A stretch of 64,000 nucleotides of DNA from the NCBI GenBank assembly GCA_963798085.1, contig CAWCRS010000007.1, positions 1,696,001-1,760,000 of the forward strand. The letters run 5' to 3'. Origin of the DNA: an uncultured Gemmatimonadales bacterium (GTDB taxonomy: Bacteria > Gemmatimonadota > Gemmatimonadetes > Longimicrobiales > RSA9). The notes under the pieces are model-generated. The model did not search any database and had not been told where the DNA came from. It saw nothing but the letters and a program-made list of their open reading frames with translations. Positions 36,817-41,116 of this stretch are shown piece after piece. Made by a program: the position numbers and the translations under genes. Numbering within the stretch: the first letter of the stretch is position 1; the number at the start of each line of letters is the position of its first letter.

Positions 36817-36845
36817 AGCTTATCCTTTGATCGCGCTAAAGTCAA
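36817..36845 (-). promoter_or_regulatory. sigma70-like promoter of the HU/IHF gene
   Basis: TTGACT-N17-TAAGCT overlapping the carA stop; implies a ~170-nt leader. Confidence 0.6.
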
Positions 36846-37961
36846 GTGCCTGTTTGGGTTCGCTGCATCGCCGCCAGGAAACGATCGAACAGATACAGCG
36901 AGTCATGCGGCCCCGGCGCAGCCTCCGGATGATACTGTACGCTGAATACCGGCAGTTCGCGGTGTTCAGCCCCTTCCATTGTCTGGTCATTGAGATTCAC
37001 GTGCGTCACCCGCAGCCCCGGTGCTCCATTTACGGTATCGGCAGGGCCTCGCCGCACCGCAAACCCGTGATTCTGCGCGGTGATCTCCACGGCGCCATCC
37101 TCGAGCCGGCGAACCGGGTGATTCCCTGCGCGGTGGCCATAGAGCAGCTTGAAGGTGTGCCCGCCGAAGGCGCGCCCCATCAGCTGGTGTCCGAGACAAA
37201 TGCCGAACACGGGAATACCGCGACGCGCCAGCTGACGGATGGTCTCCAATGCGTGCTCGACGGCGCCCGGATCACCGGGCCCGTTGGACAGGAAGAAGCC
37301 GTCCGGTTCCTGCTCGAGGATGGCCTCGACTGCGGTGGCGGAAGGCAGTGTGGTCACGCGACAGCCGCGCTCCGCTAACAGCCGGAGAGAATTCCGCTTG
37401 ACGCCGAAGTCGTAAGCCAGCACGTGAAACCGCTCGTCGCCGGTCGGCTTCACATCGTAGGGCTGCGGTGTCGACACGGCACACGTCAGGTCCAGGCCCT
37501 CCATGTGCGGAATGCGCGAGAATGCGTTGCAGCATTTCCCCGGCGGGCACGCTGTCACCAGCGATACCCGCGCGCATTGCTCCCTGCGAGCGCAGATGTA
37601 TGGTCAGCGCGCGTGTGTCGACCTCCGAGAGGCCGACAATGCCGTTGCGTTCCAGGTACTGCTGCAGCGATGACTGTGCGCGCCAGTTGCTGTGACGACC
37701 GGCGAGTTCGCGCACAATGAAGCCGGCCACCTGCACGCGCGCCGACTCTGCGTCCGCGCTGGCTACACCGTAGTTACCGATCAGCGGGTACGTCATTACC
37801 ACGATCTGCCCCGCGTAGGACGGATCTGTGAGCACTTCCTGGTACCCGGTCATCGACGTGTTGAAAACGACCTCTCCCAGGGTGTCGCCGGCGGCGCCGA
37901 TCAGTTCGCCGTCAAAGCGCCTGCCATCTTCCAGGAGAAGGTATCCGGACTGGCGTTCCAT
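36842..37961 (-). CDS. carA: Carbamoyl-phosphate synthase small subunit (frameshift ~37510)
   Basis: [51 protein letters not shown]. Confidence 0.95.
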
Positions 37962-38068: not shown

Positions 38069-38821
38069 ATGCAGAAGCTGGTCTACATGTACGCTGACGA
38101 ATCGTGCCTGGGAATCCAGTACACGGATCGCGACTCGCCCGGCGGCGCAGCCGGCCTCATCGAGTACTGGCATGTCGACCATTGGGTGCGACGCGACTAC
38201 TGGGTCAGCGAGCCCGCAACCACGAACAACCGCATGGCGCTGCGCAGCGGCATCGAAGGACTTCGTCGCCTGCGGCGCCGCTGTCGCGTGGTGTTCACAT
38301 CGGACTCCCAGTACCTGATCCGCGGGATGCGCGAGTGGGTACACGACTGGTCGCATCGCGGCTGGCGCCGCAAGTCGGGCGCAGTGGAAAATGCGGAGCT
38401 GTGGAAGGAACTGGTCGCCGAAGCCGCGCGACATCTCATCGACTGGCGCTGGGTGCGCGGGCATGCGGACCACCCGCAGAACGAGTATGCCAACATGCTC
38501 GCAGTGCGGGCCGCGCGCACGCAGGATGCAACGGCAGGACTGGTCGAATCGGGTTTCGCCGAGTGGATCGCGTCACAGCAGAGCGATCATGCGCGCTTCC
38601 GCGACTACGTCGCATCCGCGCCGCCACTCGTGGACGAGTTCCAGCCCGGTCGGCCTGTCGACATTCTGAGTTGCAGAACACCAGGATGTTCGAAGCCCCC
38701 AGGAACGACACCTTCGTTACCTGGGGGCTCCATACCGCTGGCGGGAATGTTTCTCTTGTTCCGGATCTCGCCACGTGCGGCGACTCGTCACACTCCCTTA
38801 CCCTCGTCAAGCGGTCTTTGA
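38069..38821 (+). CDS. rnhA: Ribonuclease HI (the true stop may be near 38669 if there is a 3' frameshift)
   Basis: [57 protein letters not shown]. Confidence 0.9.
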
Positions 38822-38975
38822 CTCAGGCATCCCGTGACTCACAGGATTCGTGTTGCGGCCAGCGACCCCGCAACCGGCTCGCAGAGGCCGAACTCCTCTG
38901 ACGAGCTTCTCACCGGTCGGTTTCCGTTTCCGGCGAGCTTGCATTCGACAGCAGTTGACCGCCACTGCCGAACGC
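38676..38975 (-). ncRNA. Candidate structured small RNA of unknown family
   Basis: Eight consecutive stem-loops whose G-U wobbles mostly favour the minus strand; the predicted +1 coincides with the base of the first hairpin; ends in a strong GC hairpin. Confidence 0.6.
38692..38731. terminator. Strong GC hairpin between the convergent rnhA and ncRNA/lipB transcripts
   Basis: GGAGCCCCCAGG-U-AACGA/AGGUG/UCGUU-CCUGGGGGCUUC on minus; no U-tract. Confidence 0.5.
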
Positions 38976-38982
38976 GACGCGC

Positions 38983-39012
38983 AATCTACTCGCGCGCCGC
39001 TGCGTGCGGCAA
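38983..39012 (-). promoter_or_regulatory. sigma70-like promoter of the candidate ncRNA
   Basis: TTGCCG-N18-TAGATT just downstream of the lipB stop. Confidence 0.6.
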
Positions 39013-39034
39013 GTCTTTCGGGATGTATTCGCCG

Positions 39035-39721
39035 CTATGCGGCCAGTGCGCGCTCGAACACGGCCGCGAACTCTTGTGCGACGACAGCAGCGACGGTCGT
39101 GATGTCGGGCGCCACACCGGTGCGGCGCGCGATGGACGTGACACCGCGATCGCTGATCCCGCACGGGACTATGGCGTCGAAGTAGCGCAGATCGGTATCG
39201 ACGTTGAGCGCGAATCCGTGTGAGGTGATCCAGCCGCTCGACACGCGCACGCCAATGGCCGCGATCTTTTCATTGCCCACCCACACGCCCGTGTAGCCGC
39301 TCACGCGCTGCGCGCGGATGTCGAAGTGCGCGAGCGTGCGCATCAGCGTTTCCTCGAGATCCCGAACGTAGCGATGCAGGTCGCGGCGATCGGGCTTCAG
39401 GTCGATGATGGGATAGCCGACGAGTTGACCCGGACCATGATAGGTCACATCACCGCCGCGTCCGGTTTCGAAGCACTCGATGCCGAGCAGCCCGCGCTGC
39501 GCATCGTCGAGCAGCAGATGCTCCGCGCTTGCCGATGTGCCGAGCGTAATGACGTGCGGATGCTCGAGCAGCAGGAGTGTGTCCGGGATCTCACCCTGGC
39601 GCCGCTGCATCACGCACTGCGACTGCAGCGCGAGCGCCTCGGCGTACGCCACGCGCTGCAGCCATTGCCATTGCAGTGTGCGCGTCGTCGCGGCCCTGGA
39701 GGCAGACAGCGCTGCTTGCAT
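39035..39721 (-). CDS. lipB: Lipoyl(octanoyl) transferase
   Basis: [49 protein letters not shown]. Confidence 0.96.
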
Positions 39722-41116
39722 CAGCGACTCAGCCGGCCTGCTCGGGGAAGCTCTCGAGCGACGCCTTGAGCCGGGCGAGGAAGCGCGCGGCGTCCGCGCC
39801 ATCGACGATGCGGTGGTCGTAGCCCAGCGAGAAGAACGCGCGTTTGCGTACAGCAATCGCATCTGCGCCGCCTGACATCGATGACCACGGCACGCTTCTC
39901 GATGGCGCCCGTGCCCAGGATGGCCGCGGTGCCTTCGGGAATGATGGGCATGCCCACGAGCGTTCCGAGGACGCCGGGATTGGTGATCGAGAACGTTGCC
40001 CCCTGAATCTCGTCCGGCTTGAGCTTGCGATCGCGCGCGCGTTGTGCCAGGTCTGCGATGCGCCGCGCCAGCCCCACGAGGTTCAGCTCGTCGCTGTTGC
40101 GTATGACGGGCACGATGAGTCCCGGATTGAGATCCACGGCAATGCCAATGTTGACGTCGCCCCGGTAAATGATGCTCGCGCCCGACACGGTGGAGTTGAC
40201 CATGGGGAACTCGCGCAGCAGCCTCGCCACGGCCCATGCGACGAAGGCTGTATAACTGACCTTTACACCCTGCTGCTCCCACGCGGCCCGCGCTGCTGCG
40301 CGCACGTGGTCGATGCTCGTGAAATCGACCTCCACGAACGAGTGCACGTGCGGTGCAATGCGTTTGGCGCGCACCATGTGATCCGCCGTCAGCCGGCGGA
40401 TGCGATCCATGGGCTGCACCTTGTCGCCTGCGCGTACCGGGAATTCCGGGTGTTGCACCGGTCCGAAGAACGTGCTCCAGAAATCGTCGGCGGCCACCGG
40501 TACGCCTGTGCGGGGAGCTGCCGGCGCCGTGGTCGGGGCTGGCGCCTGCTCGCGCTGCTCCAGGAAGGACATGATGTCGTTGCGTGTCACGCGTCCTGCA
40601 TGACCGCTGCCCTCGACATCGCGAAATGTCGACGCCGTGCTCGGCGGCAATGCGGCGCACCAGTGGCGTCGAGCGGCGCCGCAGTCGATCCTCTGCGCTT
40701 TCGCCGCGTCCGCCGTTGTCCGTGGCGGCGACGCGAGCGGCTGCGGGCTGCGCTGCGGGTGCAGGCGGAACGGGTGTGCGCGCCGGCGTTTCCGTTGCGG
40801 GCGATGCGGGCTTCGCCTCCGCGGCGTGGGCCGGCGGTGCAGGCGCCGCCGTGCCGGCTGGCTTCGCGGCACTCTTTTCGGTTTCGATGAAGGCGACGAC
40901 GGTACCTACTTCCACCGTCTTGCCTTCCGGCACCACGATTTCCGCCAGCGTTCCTGCGGCGGGCGATGGGATTTCCGCGTCGACCTTGTCGGTGGAGATC
41001 TCGAGCAGCGGCTCATCGCGCGCGACGTCGTCGCCCACTTTCTTGAGCCATTTCGAGACCGTTCCCTCGGCGATGGATTCCCCCATCTGGGGCATCGGGA
41101 CTTCGATTCGCGCCAT
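39721..41116 (-). CDS. 2-oxoacid dehydrogenase E2 (dihydrolipoamide acyltransferase; frameshifted)
   Basis: One lipoyl domain (MPQMGES...[14 protein letters not shown]), E3-binding domain ([12 protein letters not shown]...[12 protein letters not shown]), catalytic [15 protein letters not shown] and YDHRIVDG. Confidence 0.93.

What the first reader, a model, noticed from the sequence alone, without database searches (positions are those of the whole stretch)
38676..39012. Candidate undescribed ~290-nt multi-hairpin ncRNA with its own promoter, convergent on RNase HI
Seen: the lipB-rnhA interval has no convincing protein ORF. On minus it carries TTGCCG-N18-TAGATT (39012-38983), the same promoter style found at mdh, nuoA, yicC and moaD. 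The predicted +1 (38975) is the first base of a hairpin, and eight stem-loops follow almost back to back: H1 38941-38975, H2 38909-38937, H3 38877-38906, H4 38852-38874, H5 38829-38847, H6 ~38801-38827, H7 38735-38780, and the GC-rich H8 38692-38731. Stem mismatches in H1, H2, H5 and H8 are G-U pairs only on the minus strand (H7 has one exception), which is what selection on RNA structure would produce. One purine-rich single-stranded stretch is present (GAGGGUAAGGGAGUGUGACGAG). It does not resemble tRNA, tmRNA, RNase P RNA, SRP RNA, 6S RNA or any riboswitch I recognise, and there is no downstream same-strand gene for it to regulate in cis. Inference: a standalone trans-acting sRNA or protein-sponge RNA, possibly antisense to the rnhA 3' end.
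Basis: partly seen in the sequence, partly recalled or inferred. Interest (0 to 1): 0.8.

Follow-up and report, generated by a model that had tools for sequence, protein, structure and literature searches.

The report
SOS-boxed four-pseudoknot bacterial RNA family
This is a real, apparently undescribed RNA gene of about 295 bases, found across a phylum of soil and water bacteria, that folds into a tightly knotted shape and, in this branch of the family, sits behind the DNA-damage (SOS) switch, hinting at a structured RNA that acts during DNA damage.

Summary
Confirmed and extended. 38975-~38683 (minus) is a standalone non-coding RNA gene with no Rfam 15 match. A covariance model finds it in 29 of 36 genomes of this Longimicrobiales family, in other Gemmatimonadota families, and in 3 Steroidobacteraceae genomes, at many unrelated loci, 1-4 copies per genome (one paralog in this genome). 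All 67 modelled pairs show double-sided changes. Four long-range pairings not in the model (loop-loop and loop-linker pseudoknots) covary too, also in held-out sequences. New: CGAA-N7-CGAA lies 4 bp before the -35. The same motif is in 26/26 Gemmatimonadota lexA and 22/26 recA upstream regions, and its best genome-wide sites are recA, lexA, dnaE2, uvrC-like and imuA, so it is the inferred LexA box. It precedes 34/84 RNA copies (1/84 downstream controls), but not all branches. Best reading: a compact trans-acting RNA of the raiA/OLE 'ornate' type, probably DNA-damage-induced here. Expression, LexA binding and function are untested.

The parts
38683..38975 (-). Structured non-coding RNA gene (~293 nt; family median 293, range 236-334)
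   Evidence: (207.6 bits)
39017..39031 (-). Inferred LexA (SOS) box CGAA-N7-CGAA, ending 4 bp before the -35
   Evidence: 13.5 bits; rank 53 in the genome; paralog's box 17.8 bits, rank 9
38983..39012 (-). Sigma-70-type promoter: -35 TTGCCG 39012-39007, -10 TAGATT 38988-38983
   Evidence: sequence; conserved position in homologs; not picked by strict scan
38941..38975 (-). P1 hairpin; loop 38962-38958 forms PK1
38909..38937 (-). P2, variable stem (conserved GACG-type loop in most homologs, not in this copy)
38877..38906 (-). P3 hairpin; loop 38892-38888 forms PK2
38851..38875 (-). P4 hairpin with the most conserved loop; 38864-38859 forms PK3
38829..38847 (-). P5 hairpin, variable loop
38801..38827 (-). 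P6; loop 38815-38811 pairs with the P1 loop (PK1, kissing loop)
38743..38797 (-). P7 (38797-38790 with 38750-38743) enclosing P7a (38784-38767; loop 38778-38775 forms PK4) and the PK2 partner strand 38764-38760
38736..38741 (-). Linker strand pairing with the P4 loop (PK3)
   Evidence: (99.4% paired)
38692..38731 (-). P8, terminator-like GC hairpin; loop 38711-38708 pairs with the P7a loop (PK4); followed by a U-rich tail in most homologs
   Evidence: >=4 U in 62 of 82
39035..39721 (-). lipB, upstream neighbour (context only)
38069..38821 (+). rnhA, convergent neighbour; frame as sequenced overruns into the RNA (context only)

Best explanation
A standalone non-coding RNA gene of a new structural class. 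It is transcribed from its own sigma-70-type promoter and ends at a terminator-like hairpin. Eight stems are stitched by four long-range pairings (P1 loop-P6 loop, P3 loop-linker, P4 loop-linker, P7a loop-P8 loop) into a compact tertiary fold around an invariant P4/PK3 core. In this branch LexA binds just upstream of the -35 and most likely represses it, so the RNA should rise after DNA damage. It most likely works in trans through its shape, as a protein-binding scaffold or decoy like raiA/ModT or OLE RNA, not by pairing with mRNAs or by cis control. Shown here: conservation, covariation, non-coding character, context independence, presence of the motif. Inferred: that the motif is the LexA box (about 0.9), that LexA represses rather than activates (about 0.7), that the RNA is expressed (about 0.95), that it acts through a protein partner (about 0.55).
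For: Family: 22/36 family genomes by blastn, 7 more at 93-144 bits by covariance model; 32 of 120 GTDB pattern hits confirmed at 97-248 bits; 58 of 120 metagenome pattern hits confirmed. Nested stems: 67/67 pairs with changes on both sides, 89.3% of cells paired versus 39-46% when slid; top-ranked pairs of a tree-null G-test are all stem pairs. Pseudoknots, which were not in the model: 94.0, 98.5, 99.4 and 87.0% paired with double changes in 3, 4, 3 and 2 pairs; own-versus-cross complementarity z=9.1, 8.5, 9.3, 9.8 in 68 sequences while five wrong pairings give z<=1.2; held-out 40 sequences z=7.7, 5.2, 7.1 for PK1, PK2, PK4, controls <=0. Non-coding: anchor distances fall in all three frames. 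Trans: unrelated neighbours in both orientations. SOS: motif in 26/26 lexA and 22/26 recA upstream regions; top genome sites at recA, lexA (two), dnaE2, uvrC-like, imuA, gyrA; >=10 bits upstream of 34/84 copies versus 1/84 downstream, and 13/39 versus 0/38 in held-out copies; kept even where it lies in lipB's last codons (L415).
Against: No expression or binding data. The box is missing from several branches: 1 of 10 newly found family copies, most f2 copies, one Gemmatimonadaceae/Steroidobacteraceae branch, so SOS control is not intrinsic to the class. The box lies upstream of the -35, not in the spacer as at lexA, recA, dnaE2 and imuA, a position also compatible with activation. The window's own site is middling (rank 53; 106 sites score >=12). 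Copies are related, so counts overstate independence; the weight matrix was trained on exact matches of a motif first seen at the RNA. The RNA was not found in 7/7 genomes of family f3 or in many other class members (limited sensitivity), and single copies are lost cleanly. No partner protein was identified.
Confidence: 0.55

Rival explanations
1. RNA-only oligomer: some of the four covarying loop pairings form between molecules and build a dimer or cage as in OLE, ROOL and GOLLD.
For: In ROOL and GOLLD, contacts first seen by covariation proved intermolecular (PMC12286853, passages). Paralogs in one genome mostly keep compatible loops, and the P7a loop is often self-complementary.
Against: Covariation cannot tell intra- from intermolecular pairing; at ~293 nt it is under half the size of ROOL (659 nt in the passage read). 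Not exclusive of the best explanation.
Confidence: 0.15
2. Ribozyme or ligand-binding RNA: the invariant P4-loop/PK3 core is an active or binding site.
For: 27 positions are >=93% conserved and cluster in the P3 loop, P4 loop, PK3 and P8 base, including some with no assigned partner.
Against: No Rfam ribozyme or riboswitch match; no linked substrate or pathway genes.
Confidence: 0.12
3. Non-autonomous mobile or selfish element that moves with its own SOS-responsive promoter.
For: Many different loci, tandem pairs (L017, L022, L077, L126, G020), clean empty lipB-rnhA sites of 42 and 6 bp, one transfer into Steroidobacteraceae, one IS110 neighbour.
Against: 1-4 copies only, paralogs ~68% identical, loci shared across genera and families, tree clustered by host family (9 changes versus 39 shuffled), promoter always travels with the RNA, no transposase, integrase or reverse transcriptase among the other flanking proteins scanned, none in 74 viral pattern hits, phages or plasmids.
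Confidence: 0.06
4. Cis-acting riboswitch or attenuator in which PK4 gates the P8 terminator.
For: PK4 involves the loop of the terminator-like hairpin; in the Steroidobacteraceae-type branch it always lies 5' of a threonine synthase gene.
Against: Here and at several other loci the next gene is convergent (rnhA, GSDH, purH, SSF); same-strand neighbours are functionally unrelated; no alternative antiterminator was seen.
Confidence: 0.05
5. LexA-controlled mRNA for a small peptide, like the tisB or dinQ type I toxin mRNAs (comparison recalled, not tested against those sequences).
For: SOS box, strong structure, terminator, a purine-rich tract resembling a ribosome-binding site.
Against: No start codon shared by more than 55 of 82 copies and that one leaves 9 codons inside the terminator; anchor distances are not multiples of three; the purine tract is paired.
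Confidence: 0.03
6. Antisense RNA to the rnhA 3' end.
For: Convergent on rnhA at 16 loci in two families; 139-nt overlap in this assembly.
Against: 13 of 14 other loci have no overlap; most copies are elsewhere; two relatives have lipB next to rnhA without the RNA.
Confidence: 0.02

Closest known systems
raiA motif RNA / ModT (Rfam family; PMC12968392 and PMC11706538, abstracts and outlines read)
   Same: Standalone, compact, multi-stem bacterial ncRNA with pseudoknots, subtypes differing in peripheral stems, acting in trans, function unresolved.
   Different: No Rfam match; raiA has two pseudoknots and a conserved closing P1, this RNA has four long-range pairings, no closing stem and a 3' terminator hairpin; different phyla (Bacillota/Actinomycetota versus Gemmatimonadota); SOS box not reported for raiA in what was read.
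GOLLD, ROOL, OLE ornate RNAs (PMC12286853, passages read)
   Same: Many stems tied by covarying kissing loops.
   Different: About half the size or less; no Rfam match; not found in viral contigs, phages or near tRNA islands here.
smtA motif / Soda Lake RNA (PMC11109978, section 14 read; supplement unreadable)
   Same: Large structured RNA of unknown function with narrow distribution.
   Different: >350 nt, stated to be exclusive to Thioalkalivibrio and upstream of smtA; sequences could not be compared.
tmRNA, RNase P RNA, 6S RNA, Y RNA
   Same: Standalone structured RNAs of similar size; tmRNA also has four pseudoknots.
   Different: No Rfam or ARAGORN match; the genome has its RNase P RNA and tmRNA elsewhere and a probable 6S elsewhere; no TROVE/Ro60 gene found in this 90%-complete genome.
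Alphaproteobacterial LexA box GTTC-N7-GTTC (PMC8565304, one passage read)
   Same: Direct-repeat SOS box with 11-bp period.
   Different: Here TTCG-N7-TTCG; shifted by one base; no Gemmatimonadota motif was found in the searches run.

Membership tests
Any Rfam 15 family | Score above the family's gathering threshold | tested here: not met
   Window: 0 hits; best weak hit 22 bits vs 62; 10 + 8 diverse loci, no hit at threshold on the RNA
raiA motif RNA | Conserved closing P1 and PK1/PK2 core matching the Rfam model | tested here: not met
   No Rfam match; covarying structure has no closing stem
Large ornate ncRNA (descriptive kind) | Many stems and pseudoknots supported by covariation | tested here: met
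Large ornate ncRNA (descriptive kind) | Non-coding and independent of neighbouring genes | tested here: met
Large ornate ncRNA (descriptive kind) | Abundant discrete transcript | not testable with these tools
   No RNA run was listed
GOLLD/ROOL-type RNA nanocage | Intermolecular kissing loops forming an oligomer | not testable with these tools
   Needs biophysics or cryo-EM
tmRNA | tRNA-like ends and tag reading frame | tested here: not met
   ARAGORN 0 genes; true tmRNA at G000:C7:1551847; no conserved frame
6S RNA | Single long rod with central bubble | tested here: not met
   Eight separate stems; rod-like candidate elsewhere
SOS (LexA) regulon | Operator identical to that at lexA and recA, in the promoter | tested here: met
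   met for this branch only
SOS (LexA) regulon | LexA binds the site and DNA damage changes expression | not testable with these tools
   Needs EMSA and RNA measurement
Riboswitch / cis leader | Consistently 5' of same-strand, functionally related genes | tested here: not met
   exception: threonine synthase in one branch
Guide or template RNA of IS110, IS200/605, retron or DRT systems | Cognate recombinase, nuclease or reverse transcriptase gene adjacent | tested here: not met
   1 IS110 gene among 168 flanking frames scanned with Pfam; none of the others

The most novel reading that the evidence does not exclude
A new class of large, four-pseudoknot bacterial RNA that is a dedicated effector of the SOS response in Longimicrobiales: switched on when LexA is cleaved and acting through its tertiary (perhaps oligomeric or catalytic) structure in DNA-damage survival, while other lineages have rewired the same RNA to another regulator. 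It would be an ornate RNA class that comes with a defined inducing signal.
Probability: 0.4. Interest if true: 0.92.

Novelty: new variant of a known kind. Interest (0 to 1): 0.82.

Why it matters
Large, heavily pseudoknotted bacterial RNA classes are rare, and for most (raiA, OLE, ROOL, GOLLD) the function is a long-standing open question. This is a further class, unrelated by sequence or model to any Rfam 15 family, ancient in Gemmatimonadota and transferred at least once into Gammaproteobacteria. Unlike most such RNAs it comes with a testable physiological handle, an inferred LexA operator, which names the condition (DNA damage) in which to look for expression, partners and phenotype. At ~295 nt with four covarying long-range pairings it is also a ready cryo-EM and structure-prediction target. 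The Gemmatimonadota SOS box itself was not found in the literature searched. I file it as a new variant of the descriptive kind 'ornate ncRNA'; it would be categorically new if an SOS effector role is shown.

Tried and rejected
Sequencing runs: no RNA holder was listed; no evidence either way. Viral contigs: 8 and 66 pattern hits, none passed the model; phages and plasmids: no blastn match. Steroidobacterales: 0 convincing of 200 by blastn and 0 of 30 family genomes by model besides the seed, so the RNA is confined to a sub-lineage there. An Archangium hit of 26 bits was not kept by the second model and is rejected. Two weak family hits (G028 fragments, G034 34.5 bits) and blastn loci L030-L032 were not counted. 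Second lexA paralogs do not carry the palindrome seen before Gemmatimonadaceae copies (18 promoters), so that box is unexplained. mRNA targets: no complement longer than chance in the genome. Ro60/Y RNA link: no TROVE gene. SRP location in the genome was not obtained (one search gave no answer). Larger model searches gave no answer and smaller sets were used. R-scape was not available; a home-made G-test with tree null was used, in which pseudoknot pairs ranked 45th-67th and were not individually significant, being mostly invariant. Literature: 10 full-text searches found no description; word searches in four motif-discovery papers found no Gemmatimonadota mention in main texts. Their supplements (one unreadable; the two bioRxiv ones closed; one not asked for) could list this motif unnamed. 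Earlier scan notes: nothing relevant.

Full report
Observation. The minus strand of 38676-38975 folds far better than shuffles (z=-6.06) and better than the plus strand (z=-2.91). The flanks are lipB upstream on the same strand and rnhA convergent. Rfam 15 gives nothing at gathering score in the window and only sub-threshold noise on the interval or on 18 diverse loci. RNase P RNA and tmRNA lie elsewhere in the genome.

A family, not a one-off. The genome has a second copy about 68% identical, between an M28 peptidase and a glucose/sorbosone dehydrogenase-type gene. blastn found matches in 22 of 36 genomes of the family. A covariance model from 26 copies (R1) and a second from 42 (R2) added 7 strong genomes, giving 29 of 36; 5 had no match and 2 only weak ones. 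Other families of the class carry it as well (blastn: f2 14/48, f5 10/70, f4 2/125, f3 1/4, others 0; lower bounds), while 7 further f3 genomes had none. A pattern scan of GTDB stopped at 120 hits; 32 passed the model at 97-248 bits: 28 titled Gemmatimonadota, 3 Steroidobacteraceae, 1 unclassified. Record titles of relatives place the window's family in Longimicrobiales. 58 of 120 metagenome hits passed. The Steroidobacteraceae genomes have an E. coli-type SOS box at lexA and the RNA sits behind a def/LysM gene pair, so these are real gammaproteobacterial loci; in a tree of 81 copies they nest with support inside the Gemmatimonadaceae branch, and copies cluster by host family (9 changes versus 39 shuffled; labels of GTDB-scan loci were assigned by me from titles and neighbours). 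This reads as an old, mostly vertical family with duplications, relocations and one transfer.

Structure. On 81 distinct aligned copies all 67 nested pairs show changes on both sides and 89.3% of cells pair, against 39-46% for slid controls (the alignment was fitted to these stems, so this leans favourable). A G-test with a tree-based null on 78 sequences ranks stem pairs first, 22 of them above every null value. Four long-range pairings were never in the model: PK1 (P1 loop 38962-38958 with P6 loop 38815-38811), PK2 (P3 loop 38892-38888 with 38764-38760), PK3 (P4 loop 38864-38859 with 38741-38736) and PK4 (P7a loop 38778-38775 with P8 loop 38711-38708). They pair in 94.0, 98.5, 99.4 and 87.0% of cells with double changes in each. 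Each loop matches its own partner better than other copies' partners (z 8.5-9.8 in 68 sequences) while five wrong combinations do not; 40 held-out metagenome copies repeat this for PK1, PK2 and PK4 (z 7.7, 5.2, 7.1; PK3 was fixed by the search pattern). Kinship inflates these z values, but several independent swaps are visible per helix. Distances between anchors fall in all three frames, so there is no conserved peptide. Some f2 copies have 5' extensions and lack PK1, so P3-P8 with PK2-PK4 is the core.

Context. Neighbours include lipB/rnhA, M28 peptidase, rplU-rpmA/solute symporter, HMG-CoA reductase, HEAT proteins, threonine synthase and many singletons, in both orientations. Of five relatives checked, one has the RNA between lipB and rnhA and two have the genes 42 and 6 bp apart. 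At rnhA loci the gene normally stops before the RNA. Cis control and antisense action are therefore unlikely.

Regulation. Promoters of this branch share CGAA-N7-CGAA ending 4 bp before the -35. That full arrangement occurs 5 times in the 6.2-Mb genome, two being the RNA copies. The same repeat lies in the recA promoter and twice in the lexA promoter, and in 26 of 26 lexA and 22 of 26 recA upstream regions of Gemmatimonadota from five families. A weight matrix from those sites ranks recA, lexA, dnaE2, lexA, a uvrC-like gene, imuA and gyrA first, the paralog's box 9th and this box 53rd; lower-ranked sites are mostly beside unrelated genes. It scores >=10 bits upstream of 34 of 84 copies and downstream of 1, and 13 of 39 versus 0 of 38 in held-out copies. 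I infer that this is the phylum's LexA box, akin to the alphaproteobacterial GTTC-N7-GTTC (PMC8565304, one passage). It is not universal: a divergent f1 branch has strong promoters without it (1 of 10), one Gemmatimonadaceae branch has a flipped near-match at the same place, and another, with the Steroidobacteraceae, has a different palindrome-like element. LexA usually represses, but activation and binding without regulation are reported (PMC3381160, passages), and the box here lies upstream of the -35 rather than in the spacer, so the sign is open.

How it most likely works. Shown: a non-coding, context-independent RNA with a four-pseudoknot fold and, in this branch, an SOS-type operator. 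Inferred: it is made as a discrete ~293-nt transcript, rises when LexA is cleaved, and acts in trans through its shape, most likely with a protein, as proposed for raiA/ModT (PMC11706538, PMC12968392, abstracts). Rivals are an RNA-only oligomer (covarying loops proved intermolecular in ROOL and GOLLD; PMC12286853, passages), a ribozyme or sensor, a passive mobile element, a cis switch, a small-peptide mRNA and antisense control, in falling order.

Novelty. No Rfam family, and ten full-text searches plus word searches in four discovery papers found no description. Most subscription papers and those papers' supplements could not be seen. Verdict: a real, probably undescribed class of ornate bacterial ncRNA with a testable link to the SOS response; function unproven.

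Noticed in passing
lexA and recA promoters, L290-L343; G000:C7:1102902-1102946, 1216887: TTCG-N7-TTCG looks like the Gemmatimonadota LexA box (26/26 lexA, 22/26 recA); not found in the literature searches run.
   Followed up: yes
G000:C7:1417718-1418019 (L002/L041): Paralog of the RNA with its own promoter and a stronger SOS box (rank 9 in the genome).
   Followed up: yes
L038:1501-1656 (G000:C2:146711-146866, minus): Rod-shaped RNA with its own promoter and terminator, 21 bits to 6S (cut-off 46): probably the divergent 6S RNA, upstream of PTPS and GTP cyclohydrolase I genes.
   Followed up: partly
window 38069-38821, 36842-37961, 39721-41116: rnhA overruns its usual stop, and carA and the E2 gene appear split between frames: likely single-base assembly errors in this genome.
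   Followed up: partly
G000:C7:1436756 onward (L216): Second LexA-type DNA-binding domain continuing into what looks like a tRNA adenosine deaminase domain (identification recalled, not tested); relatives have a second full-length lexA-like gene instead. Real fusion or assembly slip.
   Followed up: no
G000:C2:159085-159106 (L352): The trxB promoter region has the same CGAA-N7-CGAA-N4-TTG geometry as the RNA promoters.
   Followed up: partly
L063, L064, L066, L068, L069, L107, L111, L137, L152: Longer (~390 nt) variant downstream of rplU-rpmA with extra 5' stems and without PK1.
   Followed up: partly
L047, L050, L053, L055, L060, L062, L082, L119, L156 upstream regions: A different palindrome-like element abuts the -35, with a weak -10; regulator unknown; not autoregulatory for the second lexA.
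   Followed up: partly
L082, L119, L156, L438, L463, L480, L484, L485, L493: In the Steroidobacteraceae-type branch the RNA lies 5' of a PALP-family gene, identified as threonine synthase in the 3 tested, often after a LysM gene.
   Followed up: partly
L017, L022, L077, L126, L117, L540/L547: Tandem or near-tandem copies of the RNA, each with its own promoter where inspected.
   Followed up: no
G000:C5:190101-193302: Cluster of weak partial tmRNA-model matches, probably a tRNA array.
   Followed up: no
L428:188-1369: IS110 transposase convergent on one metagenomic copy; the only mobile gene seen next to the RNA.
   Followed up: no
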